The notes: generated from the sequence alone by a model not told the origin. Numbered from the stretch's first letter, positions 46,015 to 60,455 are shown. The stretch is DNA of 64,000 nt from Candidatus Moraniibacteriota bacterium (GCA_963743885.1 CAVURJ010000002.1:241706-305705); one strand, 5' to 3'. Numbers and translations are program-made.

Positions 46015-46276
46015 ACTTGCTTTTTCCCTTATCCTGGGCTAGACTGAGCCTTGTCATATGGGCCTGTACCTGCCCGAATCGCTACGAGAGCAATTCTCTT
46101 GCGAATCGTTGCCCGCCCGCATCGTTACACGAGGCGTTTCGGGCAGGCGGGTGGGGTAAAGCTTGCCCTGTGTGATTCCGCTTTGCGGACCGGTGAAGCC
46201 GGATCACACGGGGTAAATATTACGCGGCATTCGTCCCTCACTTGGAAAACATTATTAGGTTCAAAGTAAATGGTTA

Positions 46277-47878
46277 TTATATAGCATACGTTTTGTTAGA
46301 TAATATGGGCCTGTAGTAAAGTGGTATTACGCGGCATTCGCATTGCCGAGTCGGGAGTTCGATTCTCCCCAGGTCCACCAAATCGGATTTTTTATCGCCA
46401 AAGGTCTCACTTATCTCAAAGATAAGCCCCAATTTGGCAGTTCCAAATCCTACACCTTTCGTATAGCGTATTCCCTCGGGAAAAACCAGTTTTTGGAACC
46501 GAGGATACAGATGCGGGGGTAAATCCGTCCATTGTCTTCCTAAATCGCTTATGTAGCGTTCTGCATAGGCTACCGAGGCTTCTGCATCGAATTGTTCTAT
46601 CCGAGCCTCACTTCGCGAAATACGCGAAGCTATGAGTTCGTTTTCTACTTCGGCTTTCCGTTCGGTAAATTCTTCCTTTGTATAGGAGCCGTCTTCTCGC
46701 ATCTCGAAAATCCGTTTACGCTTCTCTTCCAAAAGGGCGATTGTCTTATCGTATCGTTTCGCCTCGGCTTCAAAATGTCCGCCTTTGTCTTTCCAGATAC
46801 TCACAATGGTCGAGTTGATGAGGTCGCGAACTTTCTTCTTAGGGATGATTTTTTGGAGCTTCTTTACGAAGTCTTCTGCTACCTTGTCCACGGAAAGACT
46901 TTTGCAATACATAGAGCAACCCTTGGTGAAGCAATGATAGTAGGGGTATGCTCCACCTGTTCCGTGGGAAATACTCGCGGTTACTGCTTTACCGCACTCT
47001 CCGCAGAGGATTGTTTTCCGCAAAGGAAAGGTTGGATTTACCTTGTGGCGGAGGATTTTCACGCCCTTACCCGCCATTCGTTGTTTGATTTGATAGTGTT
47101 CTTCTTCTGTAATCATCGGTTTGTGCAATCCTTTGACTTCTTCTTTCGCCCACGGATTGACGATGATACCTGCATAAAAGTTCAAATGCCTGAAAAGCAA
47201 TCCGCTCACGAATTGCACTCGTGTTTTGCTTCCTCGGTATTTATCAAGCCCCCACTCATTGAACAAACGAGCAAGCTCTGTTTGAGAGACTTGCCCGCGA
47301 GCGTATTCTTTCAATCCGCGTTGAATAATAGGAAAGATGTTTTCGTCTGGCTTGTCGGGTTCGTTTTTCTTTTCGCCTCGTTTCTTGGCTTGTCCGCAAA
47401 TGTAGCCGATAGGAGGCTTCCACGGAAAGATGCCTTGGTTTATTCGTGAAATCATTCCGTCCACGCAACGCTGACGACGAACGGCATTATCAAATTCAGC
47501 ACTGCCCGCCAACACGGTCTCGATGAACTTTTCGGTCGGGTTGTTTCCAATTGGTTCCGTTACGGAATGGAGGGTTACGCCATAATCAAGAAGCACCTTG
47601 CGGACATAGAAATGGTCTTCGGTATTTCTGGCGAACCTGTCTACTTTGGCAACTACAAACGCATCCATTTCCCCTTTATTCTTTCGGCAAAGTTCGATAG
47701 CTCGCAGGAACTCCTTGCGGTCGGCAGATTTTGCCGAAGCTCCCTCCTCACGGAAAACGGCTACGATTTCGATGCCTCGGTCTTTGCAATAGTTTCGGCA
47801 AATCTCTTCTTGAAAATCAAGAGAAGTGCCTTTGATTTGTTCGTCGCTTGATACGCGTGTATAGATTATTCCTTTCAT
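46277..47878 (-). CDS. Large serine recombinase (resolvase/invertase N-domain, recombinase domain and zinc ribbon).
   Basis: Starts MKGIIYTRVSSDEQ with the catalytic Ser, then ...VAKVDRFARN and CGECGK..YYHC zinc ribbon. The open frame runs antisense through the tRNA, so the true C-terminus is probably shorter. Confidence 0.85.
   Translation of the reverse strand: MKGIIYTRVSSDEQIKGTSLDFQEEICRNYCKDRGIEIVAVFREEGASAKSADRKEFLRAIELCRKNKGEMDAFVVAKVDRFARNTEDHFYVRKVLLDYGVTLHSVTEPIGNNPTEKFIETVLAGSAEFDNAVRRQRCVDGMISRINQGIFPWKPPIGYICGQAKKRGEKKNEPDKPDENIFPIIQRGLKEYARGQVSQTELARLFNEWGLDKYRGSKTRVQFVSGLLFRHLNFYAGIIVNPWAKEEVKGLHKPMITEEEHYQIKQRMAGKGVKILRHKVNPTFPLRKTILCGECGKAVTASISHGTGGAYPYYHCFTKGCSMYCKSLSVDKVAEDFVKKLQKIIPKKKVRDLINSTIVSIWKDKGGHFEAEAKRYDKTIALLEEKRKRIFEMREDGSYTKEEFTERKAEVENELIASRISRSEARIEQFDAEASVAYAERYISDLGRQWTDLPPHLYPRFQKLVFPEGIRYTKGVGFGTAKLGLIFEISETFGDKKSDLVDLGRIELPTRQCECRVIPLYYRPILSNKTYAI
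46307..46380 (+). tRNA. tRNA-Ala (anticodon CGC) with genome-encoded CCA.
   Basis: Cloverleaf folded by hand: 7-bp acceptor stem with G3:U70, D stem gtaa/ttac, anticodon stem cggca/tgccg with loop ttCGCat, T arm gggag-TTCGATT-ctccc, discriminator A plus CCA. Confidence 0.85.
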
Positions 47879-48108
47879 AATTTTGTAGTTAGAAAAACCC
47901 AAAAGGCGGTTCTGGCACCCAACTAAACGGCCAAAGCTGTTTTCGTCGGCAGAACCGCCTTTTGGGCGTACGAAAACAAAAAATTTGGCAGTATATTATA
48001 GTTGGGTGCATCTATATTATGCCTCATTTTTCGCTTTCTGCCAACTCCTTTTTGAGGATTTTTGCGAGCTTTTTTATCGCTGTATCGCTCATATCTCCTA
48101 TGACAGGC

Positions 48109-49164
48109 TCAATTTCTGAATTGCCCAAACTTGATACCACGGATGATTTCTGTTTGCCTGTCCGTAGAGATTTTCCCGTAGCCGTAAGAACCAAAGGTTG
48201 TCCCCACGTCTGTATGTCCGAGATTTTGACTGATAGCTTTCTTTTCTTCTTCCGTCAGTCGCGTCTTGATGAACTCTTTGACGATGAGATGCCGAAAGGT
48301 ATGCGGATGAAAATAGGGGATGCCTGCACCCTTGAAACGTTTCTCAAATATCTTTCGGGCGGGCGATGCGTTACTCCAAAAGATAGGCTCGACCACTCCC
48401 GAACTGTAATAGCTGATATTTTCTTTCCCTTGTTCCAATTTGGTGGCAGGAAAAAGCGGGTCGCCTGAAGAAAACTTCCGCTTCTGCTCAAGATAGTCGA
48501 ACCATTCCAGAAAGTAGGAAAGTGGCTTTGGGTCTGGCATTGGGAAGAGGGCGGTTGTAATCATCTTGGAAAACTTGGTTTTCACTCCCGAGGCAGGGTC
48601 TTGCTCCAAGATGAGCCTTCGTTTATCAAAGCTCTTCATTCGTAGGCTGGAAATAGCGGAAATTCTTGCTCCCGTGAGGAGCGTGAGGGCGATGAGAGCT
48701 TTATCGCGTTTTTCCACCTCGGTTTCTCCATTGATACTCTCAAGCACTTTTAGGACTTCCTCGAAAGTCGGAGCATCCACTGTCCTTGCTCGGGTGGCTA
48801 TCTGGCTTTCTTTCCGCGAGAGGTTCAGGAAGCCTATATGGGTAGCGTTGATTTTGGATTTCGGCTGTTGGGCAAGCCACTCGAAGAACTTCCGCAGATA
48901 GCGGAGAATATCGTAGCAATAGCTCAAGCTGATGGAGTTTTTGGAACCCTTCTTTTCCTTTCCCTTGAGCCAGTCTCTGAAAGCGATTGCCTGCTTATCG
49001 TTGAATAGGCTGAAATCTTCCGTCTTGGTAAAGTCTTCCCAGTAGAGCAAGGCTTTCTCGAAAGACCCTATGGAATTAGCTGAAAATTGCTCTGAATTTT
49101 TGAGGAAGGCGAAGAACTCACGCTTCGTCATTTCATTCTTGTAATTGGCTTTTTGCATATACAT
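48109..49164 (-). CDS. Tyrosine-type site-specific recombinase/integrase.
   Basis: C-terminal catalytic box HPHTFRH...LGHTDVGTTFGSYGY (H-x-x-R ... Y) and an N-terminal SAM-like domain. Confidence 0.85.
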   Translation of the reverse strand: MYMQKANYKNEMTKREFFAFLKNSEQFSANSIGSFEKALLYWEDFTKTEDFSLFNDKQAIAFRDWLKGKEKKGSKNSISLSYCYDILRYLRKFFEWLAQQPKSKINATHIGFLNLSRKESQIATRARTVDAPTFEEVLKVLESINGETEVEKRDKALIALTLLTGARISAISSLRMKSFDKRRLILEQDPASGVKTKFSKMITTALFPMPDPKPLSYFLEWFDYLEQKRKFSSGDPLFPATKLEQGKENISYYSSGVVEPIFWSNASPARKIFEKRFKGAGIPYFHPHTFRHLIVKEFIKTRLTEEEKKAISQNLGHTDVGTTFGSYGYGKISTDRQTEIIRGIKFGQFRN

Positions 49165-49626: not shown

Positions 49627-49656
49627 ATGTGAGTAATTATGGATTTCAAGCTGGCT

Positions 49657-49829
49657 ATACTTCTTTGGGCGGAAGTGCTCCACCTTGAGCGGTAGCCTTC
49701 CTTTCGGAAAGCCACTGCTCAAAGATAATTTCTCCAAGGATTTGAACGGCATCTCTGATTTCGGCTACTTCCTCATCGGAAAGCGTATCGTCGTCCAAAA
49801 GCTGTCTTGCTTCTTCGATGGTTAGCATA
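49657..49829 (-). CDS. Small hypothetical protein (57 aa) translationally coupled to the upstream DUF5659 gene by an ATGCTAA overlap.
   Basis: Translated by hand: MLTIEEARQLLDDDTLSDEEVAEIRDAVQILGEIIFEQW... It is not in the supplied ORF track because it falls under 60 aa. Confidence 0.3.
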
Positions 49830-50285: not shown

Positions 50286-51833
50286 CTATAAATTTGGGGC
50301 TACGTCTTCCATATAATCACCAATATCAGAGTAGGGGTCGCTCTGTCCTTTTTTATCATCGACATAGGCTTTGTTTTTCTCCGTCGCCATTTCGCTAAAC
50401 AAGGTAAATCTCGTTCTATAGGAGTTATTTTCCTTGTAGGGATGAAATGGGTCGCTCTCCATACTGAAATAGTTTTTTAGTATATCGGAGACTTGCTGTT
50501 TTTGCTTTTTATACTGCACCTTAGCTGTTTCGTCAGGAATGGATATTTCTCCATTTTGTATCGCTAAAACTTTGAAAAAATCCCATAGGACACTCGGATT
50601 TCCATCGTGCTTCCCAAACCCCATCTCTTCGTATGTTGCAGTATGTTCCTTAGAGGGGAGTTTTATATGTATCTTTTCATCTTTCAAAACCTTCATTGAT
50701 ACCTGCCTCCACTCTGTTCCTGCTGGGATAGTAGAGGGGAACTTATGCTTTGTTTTGCTGGCGTTTCGCTTATCATCAATGCTGATGGCAATCTCTTTTT
50801 CCTGAATACTGTTCTGAAAGGTATGGATATGCTCGTGTTTGATTACCGTTCCTTTCGGTTCTGTAGCATCATCTTTTTTGGTGTCCGTCTTTTTATCAGA
50901 AGAGAATTTTTGGAAAAAATCCTTTTCTTTTTCCAACATAATACTTTTGAGACCTGCTACTTCCTCTTTGATAGTCCCCAACAATAAGGCGACGCTTTTA
51001 TCGAACGGATGGATTTCTGAATTGTTCTCAAACAAATCTTTGTCAGCCACTGTTTCCCTGAAATCAATAAGATATTGTTCTACACCGTCCGACCAAGTTC
51101 CATCAAGAAAATCAGGGGCGGAATAAAGGCTGGTTATTGGCTCGATAAGACCTTGGTAGCATTGGCTTTCTTTCAATCCTTCAAACGACGGTTCACTAAG
51201 AACAACCTCCATCAATTTTCTTCGCAATACCTTGAAAGAAACATTGAGTTCATCAATGCCCGACCTCAAGAAAATAAGTCCGTTGCCATAGTAAGCCCGT
51301 ATAATCGCCTCATAATACGAATACAGTATGCTCAAGAGATAAATCTTCTTATTGAGGGAGAAATCACTAAACTGAAAAGTGTTGAAATCTCTGATTATCT
51401 TTGATTTTTCCAAAACTGTTTTTGCTTCAGCTTGGAAGGAAACAGAGCTGGGAGCCGATACCAACCTCGCGGCAATATCCTTCACTTTTTGTATAAGCAA
51501 CAAATCGGTTGGAGATATTTCTTTGCCATTCAGCATAGAACTTACCTCCATATACTCAATCAAGGCGTATAGAGTTTTTCCGACGGTCAAATCATCTTCA
51601 TCTTCCCAGATAGTCCGCAATCTATTGGCTTTGGATGCCGAAAGGTTTTCTCTATCGTATTTCGGACTATAAATCTCTATACCGAAGTGTTCCTGAAAAA
51701 ACTCTTCTATTGTCCGATTGGAAAAATCCAGAACGTATCCTTGGCTCATTCCAAAAAGCGTTTCGATGATTTTCCTTTCACTCCCATTGAATTTTATACT
51801 CATTCTCATTTGAGAAGCATTTCCTCTGCCCAT
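50286..51833 (-). CDS. Large hypothetical protein (515 aa), possibly defence- or abortive-infection-related.
   Basis: No domain confidently recognised. A weak Rx6H motif (RNASKTKH) is present. Heads an operon that ends in the tyrosine integrase. Confidence 0.45.
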   Translation of the reverse strand: MGRGNASQMRMSIKFNGSERKIIETLFGMSQGYVLDFSNRTIEEFFQEHFGIEIYSPKYDRENLSASKANRLRTIWEDEDDLTVGKTLYALIEYMEVSSMLNGKEISPTDLLLIQKVKDIAARLVSAPSSVSFQAEAKTVLEKSKIIRDFNTFQFSDFSLNKKIYLLSILYSYYEAIIRAYYGNGLIFLRSGIDELNVSFKVLRRKLMEVVLSEPSFEGLKESQCYQGLIEPITSLYSAPDFLDGTWSDGVEQYLIDFRETVADKDLFENNSEIHPFDKSVALLLGTIKEEVAGLKSIMLEKEKDFFQKFSSDKKTDTKKDDATEPKGTVIKHEHIHTFQNSIQEKEIAISIDDKRNASKTKHKFPSTIPAGTEWRQVSMKVLKDEKIHIKLPSKEHTATYEEMGFGKHDGNPSVLWDFFKVLAIQNGEISIPDETAKVQYKKQKQQVSDILKNYFSMESDPFHPYKENNSYRTRFTLFSEMATEKNKAYVDDKKGQSDPYSDIGDYMEDVAPNL

Positions 51834-51917: not shown

Positions 51918-52109
51918 ATGGAAAGAAAAGAACTGCCAGATATTCTAACTTTGAAGCAAGCCTGTGCGGTTTTGAATTGCCATCCCAATACGCTTAGGCT
52001 ATGGGATAAAAAAGGTATTTTAGTAGCTATACGCCTCGGCAAGAGACGCGATAGACGTTATAGGAAAGACCAAATCTTTGCTTTGTTAGAAACATCTCAT
52101 AAAGGGTAA
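51918..52109 (+). CDS. Helix-turn-helix (AlpA/MerR-type) DNA-binding protein.
   Basis: LTLKQACAVLNCHPNTLRLWDKKGIL. Confidence 0.6.
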   Translation: MERKELPDILTLKQACAVLNCHPNTLRLWDKKGILVAIRLGKRRDRRYRKDQIFALLETSHKG

Positions 52110-52133: not shown

Positions 52134-53852
52134 ATGTCAGAAAATTCACTCAAAAAAGGTCGCTACACGAAATACAGCAATAAAATTGGATTGTATAGCA
52201 ATAGCAAAGGGGGATTTATCAAAAACGATACTGACGTAGTTCTGAACTTCCCGTTCAAAGATACTGTGCTTGAAGCGGGGATGAACAAAGAGGATGTAGG
52301 GCGTGATGAGCGTTTTTTACATTTGGAAATTGATAGTAAAGACATCGACACATTGGAAGAACCGAAAGTGCTTACTGACTTCCTCTACTTTGATAAAGAT
52401 GGCGAGAAGGCGTTAGACGCAAATAGTGATATTGAGTTTTTTGATATTGAAGGCAATCTCAAACAAAACTTACTCATCAAGGGCAATAACTTACTGGCAC
52501 TCTATACTCTTCGAGAAAAACTCGCTGGAAGGGTGAAAGCGATTTATATTGACCCACCCTACAATCCTCCGAGTAAGTCAAACACATTTATTTACAATAA
52601 TAACTTCAACCATTCCTCTTGGTTGGTATTTATGAGAAATCGCCTTGAAATGGCGAAACAGCTACTAACGGACGATGGTGTTCTTATTTGTGCCATTGAT
52701 GAAAACGAACTTGCGTATTTGGGAGTTTTGATTGACGAAGTTTTTGGCAGTGAAAAGGAAAGTCATTTCATTACTATTGTTCATAATCCACGAGGTATTC
52801 AAGGCACTAACTTCTCTTACACTCACGAATACGCAATCTTTGTTATTCCAAAGGGGCTGAAAACTATTGGAAACCGAAAAATTGAAGCTGAAGATATCTC
52901 TTGGCGTAACTTGCGAGATAACGGCGGAGAGTCGTTGCGCACAGACGCAAAAAACTGTTTTTACCCAATGGTGGTAAAAGACGGTGAAGTTATAGGCTTT
53001 GGTGATATAGCAAAAGATGAAATACACCCTAATGCCAATGAACCGCAAACAGATGGCTCGATATACATATACCCAATCGACCCAAGTGGAATTGAGCGTA
53101 AATGGCGATACGCACGACAAAGCGTTGATAAAATAAAAAATTTGTTGCGAGCAAAAGAGTCAAAGGGGGTTTGGCAGATAGAAATTGGTAAAGACTTTGG
53201 TCAATATAGAACAGTTTGGCAAGACCCCAGATATGACGCTAACGAGTACGGCACTAAATTGGTAAAAAGTCTTGTGCCAAGTTCGGAGTTTGATTTTCCA
53301 AAATCTCTGTGGAATGTATACGACTGTCTTTATGCGGTTGTTGCAGATGACCCAAATGCTATCATCTTAGATTTCTTTGGTGGAAGTGGCACTACCGCAC
53401 ACGCTACACTGGAACTGAATAAGGATGGCGGTAGTAGGAAGTTTGTCATAGTAGAACAAATGGGCTACATCGCATCCGTAACTCTCCCAAGAATTGAAGC
53501 TGTGATAAAGAAAGACACCCTAAAAGAGTCTTTCGTGTATTTTGAACTCAAAAAATACAACCAAGAATACATCGACCGTATTGCGAAAACTACAAGTCTC
53601 TCTGAACTGGAAGAAATCTATGTGGATATGCGAAACAACGCTTTTCTCAAGTTTTGGTTTGACCGCAAAGAGTTTGAAAAGGATGAGAATTTCCGTAATC
53701 TCGACATTGAGGGTCGGAAGCAAAAGCTCGTGGATGTATTGGATGAAAATCAGCTCTATCTGAACTATGCCGATATGGGCGATACACGGCACAAAGTAAC
53801 TGCCGACGAAAAAACACTAACGGACAAGTTCTATGGCTCGGAAAAAAACTAA
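52134..53852 (+). CDS. mod: Type III restriction-modification Mod subunit (beta-class DNA methyltransferase).
   Basis: Motif IV IYIDPPYN precedes motif I FFGGSGTT, which is beta-class order. Overlaps the downstream res gene. Confidence 0.8.
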   Translation: MSENSLKKGRYTKYSNKIGLYSNSKGGFIKNDTDVVLNFPFKDTVLEAGMNKEDVGRDERFLHLEIDSKDIDTLEEPKVLTDFLYFDKDGEKALDANSDIEFFDIEGNLKQNLLIKGNNLLALYTLREKLAGRVKAIYIDPPYNPPSKSNTFIYNNNFNHSSWLVFMRNRLEMAKQLLTDDGVLICAIDENELAYLGVLIDEVFGSEKESHFITIVHNPRGIQGTNFSYTHEYAIFVIPKGLKTIGNRKIEAEDISWRNLRDNGGESLRTDAKNCFYPMVVKDGEVIGFGDIAKDEIHPNANEPQTDGSIYIYPIDPSGIERKWRYARQSVDKIKNLLRAKESKGVWQIEIGKDFGQYRTVWQDPRYDANEYGTKLVKSLVPSSEFDFPKSLWNVYDCLYAVVADDPNAIILDFFGGSGTTAHATLELNKDGGSRKFVIVEQMGYIASVTLPRIEAVIKKDTLKESFVYFELKKYNQEYIDRIAKTTSLSELEEIYVDMRNNAFLKFWFDRKEFEKDENFRNLDIEGRKQKLVDVLDENQLYLNYADMGDTRHKVTADEKTLTDKFYGSEKN

Positions 53853-56664
53853 AGTCAATGAAACACTTGGCGACTTTCTGTTTAACCAGATAGAGAGCGA
53901 CCCTGATTTTCAGCAGTGGGCGGTATATTATAGCATTCCTGAATATATTACCGACAACCTACACCCGACGAAACGCTTGCGAGAGTATCAAAAGCAGGCT
54001 TTGAAGCACTTTATCTGGCTTTATGAACACGATAGGGCGAAGGCGAAGCATCTTTTGTTCAATATGGCGACGGGAACGGGCAAAACCCTCATAATGGCGT
54101 CCGTGGTGCTATTTCTGTATGAAAATGGCTATAGGAATTTCCTCTTTCTCGTGCATCAGATACAAATCAAAGACCAAGCCGTAAAGAACTTTACGGACTA
54201 CAAGTTTGAGAAGTATCTGTTCAATCCAAAGGGTATCAAAATCAATGGGCGAAATGTGGACGTCAAAACGGTTGAGAGCGTGGCTGATGCCAATCGCAAC
54301 GCCATAAACTTTATGTTCTTCAGCACTTCACTCCTCTACAATCGCCTCAAAGAAGACCGAGAAAATGGATTGACTGCCGATGACTTCGCAAATCACGATG
54401 TCGTGATAATTGCTGACGAAGCCCATAGGCTCAATGTGGATACGCGGAGCAAAAATAAGAAAGACCAAGAAGAAATACTCAACTGGGAAACAGCCGTAAT
54501 GTCGGCTATCAAGGCTCGGGAAGAAAATATACTGTTGGAGTTTACCGCTACGGTTGATTTGGCGAATGAGGCTATCCACAGTAAGTATGAGGACAAGATT
54601 GTCCATCGCTATGATTTTCTTGAGTTCAATAAAGACGGTTATAGCAAAGACGTAAAGTTTCTCTTCAATCAAGAGGTGCATACCGAAGACCAAAAACGCT
54701 TGTTGATTATCAATGCCGTTGTTTTGAGTGAATACCGAAGGTTACTTGCCGAGCGTGAAATGGACGTGTTTATCAGTCCAATTGTGCTTATCAAGTCAGT
54801 GAAAATTGCCCAAAGTGAAGAAGACCGAAAGTTTTTTGACAGCGTGATTGGTTCTTTGCGACCAGATGATTTGAGCCGTCTCAAAGAACTCAGTAAGGGA
54901 GGGGAAAATCGTGAACACGAGATTTTGAGTGATATGTTCGACTGGCTCGCTTCTCCAAAAGCTGGACTTGTATCGCAAGGAGACTGGGATGGTTTGAAGG
55001 CATTTACCGCCGAAATACGCGGGAGCTTTGCCCACGAAAACACACTTATTTATAACAGTCAGAAAAAGGAAAAAGCGGAATTATTGCCATTATTGGATAG
55101 CCCACGAAACACTATCCGTGCCATCTTTTCAGTCAATGCGTTGAATGAGGGTTGGGATGTGCTTGGTTTGTATGACATTGTTCACTTTGATATTTCCGAA
55201 GCCAAAAAGGTATCTCTCCAAGATATTCAATTGATTGGTCGTGGTGCGAGATATTGCCCCTATGAACTGCCAAAGCTCTACAAGCAGGATGAGGACGATG
55301 GTATGTCGAGCCTGTTTTCTGGTCGCAATCTTGAGTTTGATAAATACAAGCGGAAGTTCGACAACGACCCATTCGATAAGGGACGGGTGCTGGAAACGTT
55401 CGTCTATCATTTCGTAAAGACGGGGACATTCCTTGAAAACCTTCAACGTGATTTGCTTGGTGAGGGCATTATTAGTGAGGGTATTGAAAAGAAGACTATT
55501 GCAATGAAGCAAAAGTTCCTCGAAAGCGAGACCTACAAGAAGGGATTCGTTCTTGTAAATCATACGGAGCAAAGAACTAAGACGAAAGATGATGAGATTG
55601 ATACGACATTCAAGCGTGTCATAAAGGCTGGCTCGTATAATTTACGGGCGAGGGGTCTATCGGATTTTGAACAAAACCAAATTATCGCAGGACAAAAAGT
55701 TGATGTTATTAGTATCACTGAAGAATACTTCCCACTGCCTGTCATTCGTAAAGCGTTGGTTTCTGCCGAGGGTAACTTTTTCCGTTTCAGTAATTTGAGC
55801 AAGCATATTGTCGGTATCAGCACGATTGATGAGCTCATTGAAAAATACCTGCCACTCTACAAAATCAGTTATACCTACGAAGAGGGAAAAGGCATCAGTC
55901 AGCTCAACCCGATAGAAAAGCTACAATTGTTGGTTGGCGTGATATTGCTAGAAGTGCGTAAGGCGATTGATATAAATATGCCCCGCGTAACGGGTAGCAA
56001 AAAATTCCGCCCAGTCTCATTGTCGGTTGTTTTTGGCAAGGAAAAGAATATCTATCTGATGTCGTTTCCAGTCGAAGATGCGGTTACTGGGAAGAAGGTG
56101 TTTATGAGTAACGATGAACGTGCCAAAGCACAGTCCAACCACGACAATCCAGAACTGCAATACGATATTCAGTCCGCCAATTGGTATGCCTATGATGAGA
56201 ACTACGGCACGAGCGAGGAAAAACGCTTTGTGAAGTATATAGCGAGCCAAATTGACGATTTACGTGCGAAATATCAGGGAGCGGAGATTTATCTGATACG
56301 TAACGAGCTTGATTACTGGCTCTTTAGCCCGCAAGACGGACGCAGGTTCAGTCCTGACTATATGCTGATAGTGAATGATGTCGCCAATGGTGAGATGTAT
56401 TACCAGTGTTTGATTGAGCCAAAGGGCGGGCATTTGCTCGAACACGATGCTTGGAAGGAAGAAGCCTTGATAAGCCTGAATGATGATAGCGAGGTGGTAT
56501 TTGATGCACAGGACGGTGATACCCGCAATTACCGTGAATACTTGGCAGAAATCAGTAAGCACGGCTACAAAGAAATAAAGTCGCTTGGCTTGAAGTTCTA
56601 CAATTCCGACACTCGCGGTGAAGCCGATTTCGCATTGGATTTTCAAGAAAAGTTACTATCTTAG
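53833..56664 (+). CDS. res: Type III restriction enzyme Res subunit (SF2 helicase plus endonuclease).
   Basis: Helicase motif I MATGTGKT and motif II IIADEAHRL. About 940 aa. Follows mod with overlap. Confidence 0.8.
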   Translation: MARKKTKVNETLGDFLFNQIESDPDFQQWAVYYSIPEYITDNLHPTKRLREYQKQALKHFIWLYEHDRAKAKHLLFNMATGTGKTLIMASVVLFLYENGYRNFLFLVHQIQIKDQAVKNFTDYKFEKYLFNPKGIKINGRNVDVKTVESVADANRNAINFMFFSTSLLYNRLKEDRENGLTADDFANHDVVIIADEAHRLNVDTRSKNKKDQEEILNWETAVMSAIKAREENILLEFTATVDLANEAIHSKYEDKIVHRYDFLEFNKDGYSKDVKFLFNQEVHTEDQKRLLIINAVVLSEYRRLLAEREMDVFISPIVLIKSVKIAQSEEDRKFFDSVIGSLRPDDLSRLKELSKGGENREHEILSDMFDWLASPKAGLVSQGDWDGLKAFTAEIRGSFAHENTLIYNSQKKEKAELLPLLDSPRNTIRAIFSVNALNEGWDVLGLYDIVHFDISEAKKVSLQDIQLIGRGARYCPYELPKLYKQDEDDGMSSLFSGRNLEFDKYKRKFDNDPFDKGRVLETFVYHFVKTGTFLENLQRDLLGEGIISEGIEKKTIAMKQKFLESETYKKGFVLVNHTEQRTKTKDDEIDTTFKRVIKAGSYNLRARGLSDFEQNQIIAGQKVDVISITEEYFPLPVIRKALVSAEGNFFRFSNLSKHIVGISTIDELIEKYLPLYKISYTYEEGKGISQLNPIEKLQLLVGVILLEVRKAIDINMPRVTGSKKFRPVSLSVVFGKEKNIYLMSFPVEDAVTGKKVFMSNDERAKAQSNHDNPELQYDIQSANWYAYDENYGTSEEKRFVKYIASQIDDLRAKYQGAEIYLIRNELDYWLFSPQDGRRFSPDYMLIVNDVANGEMYYQCLIEPKGGHLLEHDAWKEEALISLNDDSEVVFDAQDGDTRNYREYLAEISKHGYKEIKSLGLKFYNSDTRGEADFALDFQEKLLS

Positions 56665-56682
56665 TTATGAGGGTGTCGATAT

Positions 56683-58215
56683 ATGAAGATATTATTAGCT
56701 GGACCAGGAACTGGGAAAACAACAAATATAGGAAATATCATCAAGGGCAAAGAAAGTCTCGATGGTATTTTAGTAATCTCATTTACCAATGCCACTGTTG
56801 AAGACTTGAAAAAATCACTTTCTCAAGTAGGGTTGCCTCTGGAGAATTGTATGACACTTCATAAGCTTGCCGTGAAGTATAACCACGATAAATCAAGGCA
56901 CGTTCTTGAGGTGATGGAGGCTAATGAACTTTACAAAATATCTAAATCAACCGAAATTGGTTTCAATGAGCTGTGTGATTTTCTATCAGCCACAACTTTC
57001 GACCAAATGATTGGTCGTTTTGTTGCCTATGCGAAATCAAATCCAGAGTATCTCAAAGAAAAGCTCTCAAGATATTCCGTGTTGATAGTTGATGAGTATC
57101 AAGACTTCAACAAAAACGAACAGGAACTCATTGATTTACTTGTTGGGATAATGCCTGATACTTATATCCTTGGAGATGATGACCAGTGTATATATGACTT
57201 CAAAGATGCGGATAATGATAAAATTATCTCTCTTTACTCGGATGCTTCACACGAAAAAATTGAACACGAGCATAAATGTTACAGATGCCCCGATGTGGTT
57301 GTTGATAGTGCTACAAAACTTATAAAAAAGAATACTAAACGAGTTGATAAGAAGTGGGAAAAAAATGGTAACGTAGGAAACCTTGTTCAGAGGCAATTCG
57401 CGTCAAATACCAATACGGCGGATTACATTTTAGAAGAAGTAAAAAAAATACTCGAAGACAATGCAGATGATAAGGTTTTGATTTTGAGCCCTGTTGGTTT
57501 TCTTGTGGAAACCCTTACAAATGTATTGGATGGTTCGGGAATTGAATACAGGAACTATTTTATTGCAAAAGTAGACCCAGAACTTGTTATAAAGTCTTGG
57601 GTTTTGAGAGCTTGTTTTGGTAGGCATAAATACTTGAACCTAATGCTCATTGGATACAGAGTTCTTTCATCAAGAAAAAAATTCTACGAAACAATCAAGA
57701 AACACTATGCTTCGGGGCAGGACTTTGATGAGCTTTTCAAAGTGGTTGCAAGCAAGTTGCCAGATGAAGGGAAAAAAACTTATGATAGCGTTGCTATCGC
57801 TCTACAAGAGCCATATTTTCAGGGTCTTACTGATTTTTTCAATAACGCTGAAGGCGGGAGTGAGGATGAAAAACTGGAGAACCTGTTTGTTTTGGTAGAC
57901 GAGAATGTTGAAAAACGAGTGAATATAATGTCTATCCATAAGTCAAAGGGTCTTGGTGCAGAACACGTTTTTATGATTGGATTGGTTGAAGGTATCATCC
58001 CGAACCGTGCAAAAGGAAATGATACAATCGAGAGCCAGAGGAGACTTTTCTATGTTGGTATGACCAGAGCAAAAAAGAACCTACATCTCATCTCAAGCAT
58101 CAATTTTGAGGGTAGATACGTGAATACTGTAAACAAGGACGACTTCAGGTTTGATGTTAGGTCTCGTCTGTGGAAGGGTAAATCTTCTCGATTTATTGAG
58201 GAAATAAACGCATAG
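56683..58215 (+). CDS. Short UvrD/Rep-like SF1 helicase with no nuclease domain.
   Basis: Walker A GPGTGKTT, motif II VLIVDEYQDFN, motif V/VI SIHKSKGLGAEHVFMIG and YVGMTRAKKNLHL. Confidence 0.75.
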   Translation: MKILLAGPGTGKTTNIGNIIKGKESLDGILVISFTNATVEDLKKSLSQVGLPLENCMTLHKLAVKYNHDKSRHVLEVMEANELYKISKSTEIGFNELCDFLSATTFDQMIGRFVAYAKSNPEYLKEKLSRYSVLIVDEYQDFNKNEQELIDLLVGIMPDTYILGDDDQCIYDFKDADNDKIISLYSDASHEKIEHEHKCYRCPDVVVDSATKLIKKNTKRVDKKWEKNGNVGNLVQRQFASNTNTADYILEEVKKILEDNADDKVLILSPVGFLVETLTNVLDGSGIEYRNYFIAKVDPELVIKSWVLRACFGRHKYLNLMLIGYRVLSSRKKFYETIKKHYASGQDFDELFKVVASKLPDEGKKTYDSVAIALQEPYFQGLTDFFNNAEGGSEDEKLENLFVLVDENVEKRVNIMSIHKSKGLGAEHVFMIGLVEGIIPNRAKGNDTIESQRRLFYVGMTRAKKNLHLISSINFEGRYVNTVNKDDFRFDVRSRLWKGKSSRFIEEINA

Positions 58216-58234
58216 GGCTAATTCGGGTTAGATT

Positions 58235-58798
58235 ATGTATCATCCTATTCAACCACCAGAAGGAAGTATTGAATGGATGAAGGAGATGGTAAAGAAGAAT
58301 GAGGGGCGTGAGTTGACTGACCAAGAGGCTCACGAAGCGGCTTACAACTATCTCAACTTCTTCAATATGCTTATCTACCTGGATAAGAAGCAACACCCTA
58401 TGAAAAAACTTTACCTTGATATTGACGGGGTGCTTCTTACCAAACAGGGGGTTCCCGCCTCGCATATTGTAGAATTTCTTCAATTTGCTACGAGCCATTT
58501 TGATTGCTACTGGCTCACGACCCATTGCGATGGAGACGCAACCACCGCATTCTTGTATCTGGTAGGAAAACTTCCACCTGAAGCCGTTCCATATTTTGAA
58601 AAGATAAAGCCTACCAAATGGAAGCTCTGGAAGCCCGAGGGGATAGATTTTTCAAGCGATTTCTTCTGGCTCGATGATTACGCCTTTGATGGGGACAAGA
58701 AAGTTTTGGAAGAGCATAAGGCGTTAGAGAAGCTAATCACCGTAGACCTCAATAATAATCCAAATCAGCTACGAGACTTGGTAAATATCTTGAAATGA
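58235..58798 (+). CDS. HAD-like hydrolase candidate.
   Basis: DxDGV motif I (LYLDIDGVLLT). 20 bp downstream of the helicase gene. Confidence 0.4.
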   Translation: MYHPIQPPEGSIEWMKEMVKKNEGRELTDQEAHEAAYNYLNFFNMLIYLDKKQHPMKKLYLDIDGVLLTKQGVPASHIVEFLQFATSHFDCYWLTTHCDGDATTAFLYLVGKLPPEAVPYFEKIKPTKWKLWKPEGIDFSSDFFWLDDYAFDGDKKVLEEHKALEKLITVDLNNNPNQLRDLVNILK

Positions 58799-59793
58799 AC
58801 AAGGAGAAAAAACCGACCAAGGGAAATCACTTTCTGCCTATTACTTACTTGAGGCATTTTCTTCACGATGACAAATTGGTGATGTATAAAAAGGGAGAAA
58901 AATTCTTTACAGGGGCAAGTAAGCCCGCCGATAGAATAGTTGTTGTTTCTGGAGAGGGTGGCTTGAAGGCAATTGCCAAGCAGAACAACTTGTATACTCT
59001 CAAGGGTGTTGAAGGCGTTGAGAGTGATTTTATGGAGAAGTTTTTCGTTGATTTGATTGAAGGGGAGCTGAATTACCTTATTGAGGAAATAGATAAACTT
59101 CCATTTGGGTCTCCTATCGTAGACGAGCTAAAACAAAAAGTTTGCATCCTAATGGCTTCTATGGTGGTGAGGGTGCCTGGAGCCAAGCAAGAAACAGAGG
59201 AGCTATATACGGAATTTTTCAAAATGCACTTCCAACACGCACCAATGTCCGAAGAAGAAAAAGTCGCTATAAAGGAACAAGTGAAGAAAGAAGAGGGGAG
59301 AGAAATAAACGATAAGGATTTTGAGGATGCTATTCAAGCTTTCGCTGATGGAAAGCTCAAATTGAGTGTATCAAGCAATCATTTTGTAAAAGACATTCTT
59401 TCCAGAATTGACGATTTTGCTAACATCTTCTACGGAATGAAAATGTGCATTCTTAGGGGGGATGGAACAAATTTCTTTATTACATCAGATAATCCAGTTG
59501 CATACTTTGTGCCAAAAGATAAAGCTGATTATCACCTCAACGCCGCACGAAGTCTGATGAGTAAATATACGGAGGTCAATTTTCCGCTTACAAAAGACTA
59601 TTGTGTTGTTATGACGAGGATGGACGATATGCACGAGATGATGCTACCTACCACCCAAGAGATATTCGATAGGCTGGAAAACACCCTATCCTGCTTCTCC
59701 AAAGACTATATCTTTTCGCCTGTTCAAAAACCGATTTTGGATGATTTTGCCAATGAGTATATCCCATATCCTTTCAAGCTGGTAAGAAGATAG
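58795..59793 (+). CDS. DUF4238-like protein.
   Basis: N-terminal GNHFLPITYLRHF matches the DUF4238 NHYxPxxYLxxF signature. ATGA overlap with the upstream gene. Confidence 0.55.
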   Translation: MNKEKKPTKGNHFLPITYLRHFLHDDKLVMYKKGEKFFTGASKPADRIVVVSGEGGLKAIAKQNNLYTLKGVEGVESDFMEKFFVDLIEGELNYLIEEIDKLPFGSPIVDELKQKVCILMASMVVRVPGAKQETEELYTEFFKMHFQHAPMSEEEKVAIKEQVKKEEGREINDKDFEDAIQAFADGKLKLSVSSNHFVKDILSRIDDFANIFYGMKMCILRGDGTNFFITSDNPVAYFVPKDKADYHLNAARSLMSKYTEVNFPLTKDYCVVMTRMDDMHEMMLPTTQEIFDRLENTLSCFSKDYIFSPVQKPILDDFANEYIPYPFKLVRR

Positions 59794-59795
59794 CT

Positions 59796-59996
59796 ATGAT
59801 TTCCAATGAACATATTCAGGAGTTCAAAAGGCTCTACAAAAACCGCTTTGGGAAGGAGCTTACTGATGTCGAAGCCCGAGAGAAAGGTTCAGCTTTGGTG
59901 CGTTTTCTGAAAATCATCTACAAGCCAATGACGAAAGAGGAGTTTGATGAACTGGCGAAAAGGAACCCGTCTATACCGCTTGAGCCTGCTCAATAG
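59796..59996 (+). CDS. Small hypothetical protein (66 aa), last gene of the operon.
   Basis: Starts 3 bp after the DUF4238 stop. Confidence 0.35.
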   Translation: MISNEHIQEFKRLYKNRFGKELTDVEAREKGSALVRFLKIIYKPMTKEEFDELAKRNPSIPLEPAQ

Positions 59997-60160
59997 CCAT
60001 CCCAAGTGATTGCCACTCCTGCAATTCTCGGGTAAGATAGTTCCAATTGAGTAGGAGGTAGTCCACACTTCGACTCGCTTCGCTCGCTCAGTGTAAACAC
60101 GAAATACTGAGAAGCGAGGTGAAGTACCCTGAGCCTGTCGAAGGGCATCATAGCTCCTGT

Positions 60161-60415
60161 ATGGCTTGGTACACATATATTGCGAAAGCGAGAACCGGCC
60201 GGTACTATACCGGTATTACGAATGATCCTTGTAAAAGAATTGAGAAACACAATTCTGGAAAAGGTTCTCTCATGGCGGTTCAACAGGGGCCATTTGATCT
60301 CGTGTATGTTTCGAATGAATTTCCAGGAAAATCAGAAGCTAGAAAACGGGAAGAACAGATTAAGGGCTGGAGCAGAGAAAAGAAAGAGAAGTTGATTTTT
60401 GGTGAATGGGTATAG
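60161..60415 (+). CDS. GIY-YIG nuclease family protein.
   Basis: WYTYIAKARTGRYYTGITNDPCKRIEKHNSG is the GIY-YIG/URI signature. The ORF opens with GTG at 60119 and ATG at 60161 is the more likely start. Confidence 0.7.
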   Translation: MAWYTYIAKARTGRYYTGITNDPCKRIEKHNSGKGSLMAVQQGPFDLVYVSNEFPGKSEARKREEQIKGWSREKKEKLIFGEWV

Positions 60416-60440
60416 TCGTTAATAACGAGCAGTGAGATAT

Positions 60441-60455
60441 CTCCCCAGGTCCACA
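60441..60455 (+). repeat. attR core: direct repeat of the tRNA-Ala 3' end (tctccccaggtccac).
   Basis: 15/15 identity with 46366-46380. Confidence 0.55.

What the first reader, a model, noticed from the sequence alone, without database searches (positions are those of the whole stretch)
56683..59996. Candidate undescribed defence operon: short UvrD-like helicase, HAD-like protein, DUF4238 and a 66-aa protein
Four genes with 20-bp, 4-bp-overlap and 3-bp junctions lie immediately after a Type III R-M pair on a mobile island. The helicase is an SF1 UvrD/Rep core (about 510 aa, no nuclease domain), reminiscent of GajB, but no GajA/OLD partner is present. DUF4238 is a defence-island-enriched domain of unknown mechanism. 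The HAD-like DxDGV protein could be a nucleotide phosphatase. To my knowledge this gene combination does not match Gabija, Hachiman, DISARM or Zorya.
Basis: inference. Interest (0 to 1): 0.75.

Follow-up and report, generated by a model that had tools for sequence, protein, structure and literature searches.

The report
Mosaic defence cargo behind restriction genes
The four genes are real, but they are separately swappable cargo genes at the end of a mobile island in an uncultured Moranbacteria-type bacterium, not one new anti-phage machine; the parts are a helicase that often sits in restriction operons, a small phosphatase, a distant relative of a known single-gene anti-phage protein, and a tiny helical protein.

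Summary
Four co-directional, tightly packed ORFs (56683-59996) follow a Type III Mod/Res pair. They lie on a ~14-kb low-GC island integrated at tRNA-Ala.

The domain calls are right:
- a compact UvrD-like SF1 helicase;
- a cap-less HAD phosphatase, fused to a small helical domain;
- a DUF4238 protein;
- a 66-aa protein.

The reading as one undescribed four-gene system fails its own refutation test. Sister islands with 96%-identical Res carry every sub-combination:
- helicase + HAD + 66-aa, without DUF4238;
- DUF4268 in place of the helicase;
- DUF4238 + 66-aa, with neither helicase nor HAD domain.

None of 67 metagenomic DUF4238 loci has a UvrD-like helicase. Among the other 20 helicase-ortholog loci in reference genomes, only one has DUF4238, and the HAD occurs only in the window's own island lineage.

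DUF4238 is already a validated single-gene defence (Rousset 2022). The window protein is a full-length but remote homolog (22% identity).

The most interesting residue is the helicase family. In 8 of 21 loci it sits inside or beside Type I or Type III R-M operons, in several phyla. That fits the known pattern of independent defence genes embedded in R-M loci.

Overall this is a new member of a known kind (a variable defence-cargo hotspot). Interest is modest.

The parts
46307..46380 (+). tRNA-Ala(CGC); integration site (attL side) of the island
   Evidence: ARAGORN. Its last 15 nt, TCTCCCCAGGTCCAC, recur at 60440-60454.
46277..47902 (-). Large serine recombinase (island backbone)
   Evidence: ORF. 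96% identical over residues 7-165 to the partial (locus-edge) Resolvase-family gene of sister island L001.
48109..49164 (-). Tyrosine recombinase (island backbone)
   Evidence: Pfam Phage_integrase 2.4e-10. 84% identical in L001.
50286..51833 (-). 515-aa backbone protein with no family hit
   Evidence: No hit in Pfam, PADLOC or NCBIfam. Conserved in L085 (57%) and L001 (40%, C-terminal part).
51918..52109 (+). MerR/excisionase-like HTH that opens the + strand gene string
   Evidence: NCBIfam excise domain and PHROG excisionase. The same position in L001, L085 and L161 holds HTH_17/MerR.
52134..53852 (+). Type III R-M Mod methyltransferase
   Evidence: Pfam N6_N4_Mtase; PADLOC MTase_III 1.3e-89.
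53833..56664 (+). Type III R-M Res subunit; overlaps Mod by 20 nt
   Evidence: Pfam ResIII 4e-29; PADLOC REase_III 3.9e-95. 96% aa identity in L001 and L004.
56683..58215 (+). Compact (510 aa) UvrD/PcrA-like SF1 helicase with no nuclease domain; swappable cassette 1
   Evidence: Pfam and PADLOC hits. Walker A GPGTGKT, DEYQD, GDDDQ and VGMTRAK are invariant in the family. The closest solved relatives by sequence are UvrD, Rep and PcrA. L001 has a DUF4268 gene in this position.
58235..58399 (+). N-terminal helical-hairpin domain of ORF2 (aa 1-55), paralogous to ORF4
   Evidence: BLASTP against ORF4 gives E 3e-6 and jackhmmer from ORF4 recovers it. It is a free-standing 62-aa ORF in L087. The AF2 model shows helices 11-23 and 29-53.
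58400..58798 (+). Cap-less HAD phosphatase domain of ORF2 (aa 56-187); elsewhere a free-standing ~133-aa protein
58795..59793 (+). DUF4238 protein; swappable cassette 2; remote homolog of the validated single-gene defence
   Evidence: PF14022 3.9e-26. hhalign to the E. coli TA007 pFR101 protein: probability 98.8, E 8.8e-17, 275 columns, 22% identity. The gene is absent from L001 and L004 with clean junctions.
59796..59996 (+). 66-aa helical protein; the constant last gene of the cargo string
   Evidence: Present at 53-89% identity in L001, L004, L085 and L086/L087 whatever precedes it.
59998..60067 (+). Conserved non-coding element resembling a degenerate tRNA 3' half, ending in GTAGTCCAC; end of the sequence shared among sister islands
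   Evidence: Alignment A4. The blastn matches of L001 and L085-L087 all stop at 60066/60067.
60119..60415 (+). Small GIY-YIG protein between the conserved element and the exact att repeat
   Evidence: Pfam GIY-YIG 3.9e-16. No detectable counterpart in the L001, L004 or L085-L087 loci.
60440..60454 (+). Exact 15-nt repeat of the tRNA-Ala 3' end (attR)
   Evidence: Repeat family D20.

Best explanation
The 3.3-kb stretch is the variable cargo end of a ~14-kb integrative island. The island sits at tRNA-Ala in a Moranbacteria (candidate phyla radiation) genome and carries serine and tyrosine recombinases. Behind a complete Type III restriction-modification pair lie slots that different island copies fill with different, functionally independent genes.

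In this copy the slots hold four things:
1. A compact UvrD/PcrA-like helicase. Its family moves between contexts and is repeatedly found inside or next to Type I and Type III R-M operons.
2. A cap-less HAD phosphatase, fused here to a small helical domain.
3. A DUF4238 protein. It is a remote full-length homolog of the E. coli protein that on its own blocks phage T7.
4. A 66-aa helical protein that closes the string in every copy.

Shown:
- the gene content;
- the independent presence or absence of each module;
- the homologies and folds.

Inferred:
- The six + strand genes are co-transcribed from upstream of Mod, given gaps of 19 nt or less.
- R-M cleaves unmodified incoming DNA.
- DUF4238 adds a separate layer of protection whose chemistry is unknown; its predicted fold matches nothing solved.
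- The helicase, an intact ATPase by its motifs, most likely loads on DNA ends or nicks such as those left by restriction. It would then unwind them or burn (d)NTPs there, as reported for GajB. That would make it an optional booster or second layer, not a subunit.
- The HAD enzyme is a Mg-dependent phosphatase acting on a macromolecular substrate, such as a phosphoprotein or a nucleic-acid end. It probably serves the mobile element as much as defence.
For: Mosaic structure:
- L001 matches the window at 91% nt identity through Res. It then has DUF4268 instead of the helicase, resumes at ORF2 (87% nt) and runs straight into ORF4 (86% nt) with no DUF4238.
- L004 has Res 96%, Hel 96%, ORF2 89% and ORF4 81%. 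It has no DUF4238, and its Mod is only 51% identical.
- L086/L087/L094 have Res, a 62-aa ORF equal to the ORF2 N-terminus only, DUF4238 at 77% and ORF4 at 85%.
- L085 has Mod, Res, a remnant of the ORF2 N-terminus, DUF4238 and ORF4.
- L084 has DUF4238 alone.

DUF4238 has no partner:
- None of 67 metagenomic loci has a hit to the helicase HMM.
- The HAD appears only in L143, a contig of the window's own lineage (90% identity).
- The only recurring neighbours are serine recombinases.
- Single-gene anti-T7 activity of DUF4238 is published, and homology to that very protein was measured.

The helicase is mobile between contexts:
- HsdM-HsdS-HEL-HsdR in L007 and L009.
- HsdM-HEL-HsdS-HsdR in L008.
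- HsdM-HsdS-HsdR-HEL in L011.
- Mod-Res-HEL in L010 and L004.
- Mod-HEL-Res in L018.
- Directly after a CBASS patatin + CD-NTase pair in L163.
- Beside a Shedu-like gene in L016.
- With no recognised defence neighbour in L005, L006, L013, L015, L017, L023, L047 and L162.

- R-M-linked members are scattered over the helicase tree.

The HAD family recurs in mobile elements:
- After Type III Res in L090 and L092.
- Near a reverse transcriptase, Fic and IS200 in L088.
- Beside FtsK/SpoIIIE in IMG/VR contigs.

Against: - The tight spacing and the 4-nt overlap would also fit a single system.
- One distant Bacteroidota locus (L014) again places DUF4238 75 nt downstream of a helicase ortholog. A loose functional affinity of these two genes is therefore not excluded.
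- The comparison rests on few independent lineages per module, and many metagenomic contigs are short.
- My neighbour gene calls are crude longest-ORF calls.
- No expression or phenotype data exist for any of these genes in CPR bacteria.
- The window DUF4238 protein is only 22% identical to the tested E. coli protein, and no PADLOC model recognises it.
Confidence: 0.75

Rival explanations
1. The helicase (alone or with the HAD protein) is a functional accessory or 'guardian' of ATP-dependent restriction enzymes. It would act on the products or the stalled state of Type I/III enzymes, so the real unit here is Mod-Res-helicase. This overlaps in part with the best explanation.
For: - R-M genes lie in the same gene string in 8 of 21 helicase-ortholog loci, against 5 of 59 loci with other UvrD-like helicases (Fisher p = 0.004).
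- In four loci the helicase lies between R-M subunits.
- These cases are polyphyletic on the helicase tree.
- In L004, Res and the helicase stayed 96% identical while Mod was exchanged (51%).
Against: - L001 keeps a 96%-identical Res with no helicase.
- About half of the orthologs have no R-M nearby; one follows CBASS.
- The enrichment test used R-M queries taken from the ortholog loci themselves, which biases it.
- Independent defence genes embedded in R-M loci are a known pattern and need no coupling (PrrC, TgvAB and the embedded candidates of Payne et al.).
Confidence: 0.25
2. The four genes (or helicase + HAD + DUF4238) are one new multi-gene defence system.
For: - Co-directional genes with gaps of 19 nt, -4 nt and 2 nt.
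- The L143 and L129 contigs of the same lineage repeat the HAD-DUF4238 and DUF4238-ORF4 junctions.
- The helicase-DUF4238 adjacency recurs once, in Bacteroidota (L014).
Against: - Every sub-combination exists in sister islands.
- None of 67 DUF4238 loci has a helicase.
- The HAD is absent from all helicase loci outside the window's lineage.
- DUF4238 works alone in E. coli.
Confidence: 0.07
3. The helicase, the HAD protein and the small ORFs serve the island itself (replication, transfer, excision control) and are not defence genes.
For: - All sit on integrative elements.
- HAD relatives lie beside FtsK/SpoIIIE DNA translocases and small terminase-like genes.
- L161 and L162 carry TraG/TrwB-like genes near the helicase.
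- The helicase hits PHROG 1967, 'DNA helicase'.
Against: - No helicase ortholog was found in 2.9 million viral contigs (best about 24% identity). None was found in 72,556 plasmids at E<=1e-20.
- The helicase is dispensable for the otherwise identical island L001.
- Its position inside R-M operons is hard to explain by a mobility role.
Confidence: 0.12

Closest known systems
Rst_DUF4238 (single-protein anti-phage system from the E. coli P2-prophage hotspot, Rousset et al. 2022)
   Same: - One protein carrying PF14022 over its whole length.
- Shared N-terminal HHFL..YLKxF-type motif and an identical FITSDNPV motif.
- No conserved partner gene.
- Located in a variable cargo slot of a mobile element.

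   Different: - Only 22% identity to the tested protein.
- Not recognised by any PADLOC model.
- The host is a CPR bacterium.
- Here it is flanked by small helical ORFs.
GajB of Gabija, and housekeeping UvrD/Rep/PcrA
   Same: SF1A helicase core with intact ATPase motifs, similar in size to GajB. The best PADLOC models are GajB.
   Different: - No GajA (OLD ATPase-TOPRIM) neighbour.
- GajB model coverage is partial (residues 106-486).
- By sequence the nearest solved structures are UvrD, Rep and PcrA (profile search down to E 7e-39); no chain named GajB is among the matches at E<=1e-5.
- It is about 150-200 residues shorter than UvrD, with a reduced N-terminal region.
Independent defence genes embedded in R-M loci (PrrC in EcoprrI, TgvAB in the V. 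cholerae Type I locus, RloF, and the embedded candidates of Payne et al. 2024)
   Same: A non-R-M gene inserted between or directly after hsdM/S/R or mod/res, recurring across taxa.
   Different: - The embedded gene here is a nuclease-less UvrD-like helicase.
- I found no paper that describes this helicase family in that role.
- No functional test exists.
Hotspots of variable anti-phage cargo in P2/P4 and other integrative elements
   Same: A conserved backbone with one or two slots in which unrelated defence genes replace each other between close relatives.
   Different: - The element is a tRNA-Ala island of CPR bacteria with a serine plus a tyrosine recombinase.
- The slots lie downstream of a Type III R-M and are bracketed by paralogous small helical ORFs.
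Cap-less (C0) HAD phosphatases of the FCP/SCP type (Scp1, UBLCP1, CTDNEP1, TIM50 fold)
   Different: - No sequence-level hit to any Pfam or NCBIfam HAD model or to any PDB chain.
- Extra invariant C91, H97 and C98.
- Only about 133 aa.
- Bacterial and borne on mobile elements.
- Substrate unknown.

Membership tests
Gabija | GajB: UvrD-like SF1 helicase | tested here: met
   Pfam UvrD-helicase and UvrD_C; PADLOC GajB PDLC00117 4.8e-40, covering residues 106-486 only.
Gabija | Adjacent GajA: OLD-family ATPase + TOPRIM nuclease | tested here: not met
   The neighbours are Res and the HAD protein. No island ORF submitted to PADLOC hits GajA. None of the ortholog loci showed a conserved GajA-like partner.
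Rst_DUF4238 single-gene defence | Protein consisting of a DUF4238 (PF14022) domain | tested here: met
   92.6 bits against a cut-off of 27; residues 12-279.
Rst_DUF4238 single-gene defence | Homology to the experimentally tested protein (E. coli TA007, pFR101) | tested here: met
   hhalign probability 98.8, E 8.8e-17, 275 of 309 residues aligned, 22% identity. Pairwise BLASTP gives only E 7e-6.
Rst_DUF4238 single-gene defence | Acts without a conserved partner gene | tested here: met
   No conserved neighbour in 67 metagenomic loci apart from recombinases. It stands alone in L084.
Rst_DUF4238 single-gene defence | Protects against phage when expressed alone | not testable with these tools
   Needs plaque assays. 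Published only for the E. coli protein.
Type III restriction-modification | Mod (N6/N4 methyltransferase) followed by Res (SF2 ResIII ATPase-nuclease) in one operon | tested here: met
   PADLOC MTase_III 1.3e-89 and REase_III 3.9e-95; the genes overlap by 20 nt.
Type III restriction-modification | The helicase is a required third subunit | tested here: not met
   L001 has a 96%-identical Res without the helicase. Classical Type III enzymes need only Mod and Res (established knowledge).
HAD superfamily phosphatase | Four catalytic motifs (DxD, S/T, K, DD/ED) | tested here: met
   D62, D64, T95/T96, K133 and D147/D148 are invariant or nearly invariant in 60 sequences.
HAD superfamily phosphatase | Rossmannoid HAD fold | tested here: met
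HAD superfamily phosphatase | Recognised by a curated HAD sequence model | tested here: not met
   No Pfam, NCBIfam or PDB-sequence hit.
A single multi-gene defence system (any) | Component genes co-conserved across lineages | tested here: not met
   All sub-combinations are found in sister islands. None of 67 DUF4238 loci has a helicase. Among 20 other helicase loci, 1 has DUF4238, and the HAD occurs only in the same lineage.
Hachiman / DISARM / Zorya | Signature partners (HamA; DrmA-C/E plus a methylase; ZorA/B) | tested here: inconclusive
   ORF2, ORF3 and ORF4 hit no PADLOC model at all, even at E<=10. For the helicase only the best 25 of 45 PADLOC hits were shown: 24 GajB models and one RTasHel (DRT) model.

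The most novel reading that the evidence does not exclude
The ~510-aa nuclease-less UvrD-like helicase family may be a dedicated, portable partner of ATP-dependent (Type I and Type III) restriction enzymes. It would load on the ends or stalled complexes these enzymes create and turn a single cut into destruction of the invader or into nucleotide depletion. This would be a helicase-type 'R-M guardian' spread across CPR, Elusimicrobia, Bacteroidota and Chloroflexi. The cap-less HAD phosphatase could be a second recurrent rider on Type III loci that edits DNA-end phosphates.
Probability: 0.15. Interest if true: 0.6.

Novelty: new member of a known kind. Interest (0 to 1): 0.33.

Why it matters
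As proposed (a new four-gene defence system) it would have mattered, but the comparative data argue against it. Three things remain useful.

First, this is a clear worked example showing that tight operon-like packing in a defence island does not imply one system. Here the same backbone carries every sub-combination of the genes.

Second, there is a concrete, testable candidate: a compact helicase family found in or beside Type I/III restriction operons in 8 of 21 loci across several phyla. This extends the 'guilt by embedding' idea to a helicase and to the little-studied CPR bacteria.

Third, it shows that the DUF4238 defence family reaches into CPR genomes. Its predicted fold has no solved relative, so its mechanism remains an open question.

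Tried and rejected
- PADLOC, Pfam, NCBIfam and PHROGs gave nothing for ORF2 and ORF4.
- A profile search of ORF2 against PDB sequences gave only noise.
- tblastn of DUF4238 against 50,697 phage records, and of the helicase against 72,556 plasmids (E<=1e-20), found nothing.
- The IMG/VR scan found no helicase ortholog.
- Plain tblastn missed the L014 DUF4238 neighbour. Only Pfam and my own HMM found it.
- I first thought the 57-aa ORF at 49655-49828 shared the ELTD..EA motif of ORF2-N and ORF4. jackhmmer did not recover it, so I dropped the idea.
- Promoter and terminator consensus scans were no better than shuffled sequence. They say nothing about transcription units.
- Literature searches for a described UvrD-like helicase inside R-M operons found none.
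- The exhaustive representative-protein search was not run. It returns neither context nor names, so it could not bear on co-conservation.
Full report
**1. What is in the sequence**

The gaps are 19 nt, -4 nt and 2 nt, and the first ORF starts 18 nt after the preceding gene.

That preceding pair is a Type III R-M. Mod (52134-53852) hits PADLOC MTase_III at 1.3e-89. Res (53833-56664) hits REase_III at 3.9e-95.

The whole block lies on a low-GC segment, about 0.40 against about 0.55 in the flanks. The segment starts at a tRNA-Ala gene (46307-46380). It carries a large serine recombinase, a tyrosine recombinase, HTH proteins and an excisionase-like gene. It ends with an exact 15-nt copy of the tRNA 3' end at 60440-60454.

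**2. What the four proteins are**

ORF1 is an SF1A UvrD/Rep/PcrA-type helicase (Pfam UvrD-helicase, UvrD_C, AAA_19).
- Its Walker A, DEYQD, GDDDQ and motif VI residues are invariant across orthologs.
- PADLOC's best models are GajB, but they cover only residues 106-486.
- By sequence the nearest solved structures are UvrD, Rep and PcrA. No chain named GajB appears at E<=1e-5.

ORF2 hits no HMM library but has 369 homologs.
- Most are 131-136 aa and align only to its residues ~56-187.
- In that part the four HAD catalytic motifs are invariant (D62xD64, T95/96, K133, D147D148).
- Residues 1-55 form a helical hairpin paralogous to ORF4 (BLASTP E 3e-6; jackhmmer).

ORF3 is a DUF4238 protein (PF14022, 92.6 bits).
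- A single DUF4238 protein from an E. coli P2-like prophage hotspot gives strong resistance to T7 (Rousset et al. 2022, PMC9122126). It is catalogued as 'Rst_DUF4238' with unknown mechanism.
- I took the tested protein's sequence from that paper's supplement and compared it with a profile of the window protein. The result was probability 98.8, E 8.8e-17, 275 aligned columns and 22% identity, with an identical FITSDNPV motif.
- The window protein is therefore a remote, full-length homolog.

ORF4 has no family assignment.

**3. Are the four genes one unit?**

No. The closest relatives of the island show every sub-combination.

| Locus | Content after Res |
|---|---|
| L001-L003 | Same backbone (Res 91% nt, 96% aa); a DUF4268 gene instead of the helicase; ORF2 (87% nt) running straight into ORF4 (86% nt); no DUF4238 |
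| L004 (Moranbacteria MAG) | Res 96%, helicase 96%, ORF2 89%, ORF4 81%; no DUF4238; Mod only 51% identical |
| L086/L087/L094 | A 62-aa ORF equal to the ORF2 N-terminus alone (no HAD domain); DUF4238 (77%); ORF4 (85%) |
| L085 | Mod-Res; a remnant of that small ORF; DUF4238 (73%); ORF4 |
| L084 | DUF4238 (77%) alone among housekeeping genes |

Relative to these islands, three segments of the window behave as clean cassette differences. They are the helicase (56656-58234), the HAD segment (58372-58793) and DUF4238 (58785-59795).

Wider surveys agree.
- A metagenome scan with a DUF4238 alignment gave 67 loci. 49 of them have at least 2.2 kb of flank on at least one side.
- None contains anything matching a helicase HMM that would catch any UvrD-like protein.
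- The HAD appears only in L143, a short contig of the window's own lineage.
- The only recurring neighbours are serine recombinases.
- From the helicase side, 21 ortholog loci in species-representative genomes (38-96% identity) contain the HAD only in L004. They contain DUF4238 only in L014, a Bacteroidota MAG where it lies 75 nt downstream.

That single recurrence is noted but does not amount to a partnership.

**4. What the helicase family does show**

Its neighbours are strikingly often R-M genes:
- HsdM-HsdS-HEL-HsdR (L007, L009);
- HsdM-HEL-HsdS-HsdR (L008);
- HsdM-HsdS-HsdR-HEL (L011);
- Mod-Res-HEL (L010, L004 and the window);
- Mod-HEL-Res (L018);
- a Type IIG-like methylase with a KAP NTPase (L012).

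These were verified by Pfam for representative members.

R-M genes are present in 8 of 21 ortholog loci, against 5 of 59 loci with other UvrD-like helicases (p = 0.004). The caveat is that my R-M queries came from the ortholog loci themselves.

On a rough NJ tree these cases are scattered among members with other contexts:
- one directly after a CBASS patatin + CD-NTase pair (L163);
- one beside a Shedu-like gene (L016);
- one after a GTP-cyclohydrolase-methyltransferase fusion (L161);
- several with no recognisable defence neighbour.

No ortholog was found in IMG/VR or in plasmids.

The pattern matches the known class of independent defence genes embedded in R-M and other multi-gene loci. Examples are PrrC, TgvAB, RloF and the candidates of Payne et al.. 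I found no paper describing this helicase family in that role. Because a 96%-identical Res exists without it (L001), it is not a subunit.

**5. The HAD and small-ORF modules**

Free-standing ~133-aa HAD homologs again sit on mobile or defence segments:
- after Type III Res genes (L090, L092);
- near a reverse transcriptase, Fic and IS200 (L088);
- in IMG/VR contigs next to FtsK/SpoIIIE translocases, DUF2779 and a Type IIG R-M.

The cap-less architecture suggests a macromolecular substrate. The substrate itself is not known.

ORF4-like small proteins close the cargo string in all sister islands. They also occur after DUF4238 in L111 and near the helicase in L012 and L163. Their role is unknown.

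**6. Most likely mechanism**

Shown: a Type III R-M followed by independently exchangeable cargo.

Inferred:
- The six + strand genes are co-transcribed.
- R-M cuts unmodified DNA.
- DUF4238 gives a separate, single-protein layer of protection.
- The helicase acts on DNA ends or nicks as an optional enhancer or second layer, by analogy with the (d)NTP hydrolysis at DNA termini reported for GajB (PMC10681800, listed; this reading of that paper is from my own knowledge).
- The HAD enzyme dephosphorylates a protein or a nucleic-acid end.

I put 0.75 on the mosaic reading, about 0.25 on real functional coupling of the helicase with R-M (compatible with the mosaic), 0.07 on a true four-gene system and 0.12 on a purely mobility-related role.

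**7. Verdict**

The finding is a correct description with an over-reaching interpretation. It is a new member of a known kind, a variable defence-cargo hotspot on an integrative island, here in a CPR bacterium. It contains a remote homolog of a known single-gene system and one worthwhile lead, the R-M-embedded helicase family. Interest 0.33.

Noticed in passing
window 59998-60067 (also L001 10939-11042 and 12584-12652; L004, L085, L087 after ORF4): A conserved ~70-nt non-coding element follows ORF4 in every sister island. It ends in AGTTCCAATTGAGTAGGAGGTAGTCCAC and looks like a degenerate copy of the tRNA-Ala 3' half (T-arm plus acceptor). L001 has two copies bracketing an extra 312-aa + DUF805 segment. 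This suggests old att sites and tandem accretion of modules.
   Followed up: partly
window 60119-60415: A 98-aa stand-alone GIY-YIG protein lies between that conserved element and the exact att repeat at 60440-60454. No counterpart was detected in the L001, L004 or L085-L087 loci, so it is probably a separate small insertion at the same site.
   Followed up: partly
window 46218-46233 and 46325-46340: An exact 16-nt repeat, TATTACGCGGCATTCG, occurs once inside tRNA-Ala and once 107 nt upstream of that copy. It may be a remnant of an earlier tRNA-targeted integration.
   Followed up: no
window 46277-46380: The serine-recombinase ORF on the - strand runs through the tRNA-Ala gene on the + strand. 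Its last ~25 codons are therefore antisense to the tRNA, and the true C-terminus is uncertain.
   Followed up: no
window 58235-58798 versus L087 5087-5275: ORF2 is a gene fusion. The first 55 aa are a free-standing 62-aa ORF in L087 and are paralogous to ORF4. The HAD part is a free-standing ~133-aa protein in most genomes.
   Followed up: yes
window 50286-51833 (- strand): A 515-aa island backbone protein has no hit in any library. It is conserved in L085 (57%) and in part in L001 (40%).
   Followed up: no
L163 4076-7527: A helicase ortholog (63% identity) follows a CBASS-type patatin + CD-NTase pair with a 24-nt gap, on an element with a serine recombinase and an rve transposase.
   Followed up: partly
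L014 7001-9618: In a Bacteroidota MAG a helicase ortholog (40% identity) is followed after 74 nt by a DUF4238 protein (PF14022, 3.3e-41). This is the only recurrence of the pairing outside the window's lineage.
   Followed up: partly
L019, L020, L022 (helicase at 7001 onwards): The helicase orthologs in these Chloroflexi, Bacteroidota and Blastocatellia MAGs are split into fragments. In L019 a 401-aa ORF on the opposite strand interrupts the gene. They look like decaying copies.
   Followed up: no
L223 5664-8918, L224 5247-7399: In IMG/VR contigs the HAD-like gene is directly adjacent to an FtsK/SpoIIIE-type translocase gene; in L224 the two ORFs overlap by 4 nt. This hints at a role linked to DNA transfer by the element.
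   Followed up: partly
L161 3956-5971: A 671-aa fusion of GTP cyclohydrolase II with a methyltransferase domain sits behind a MerR-like HTH and directly before an 85%-identical helicase. It occupies the position that Mod-Res holds in the window.
   Followed up: no
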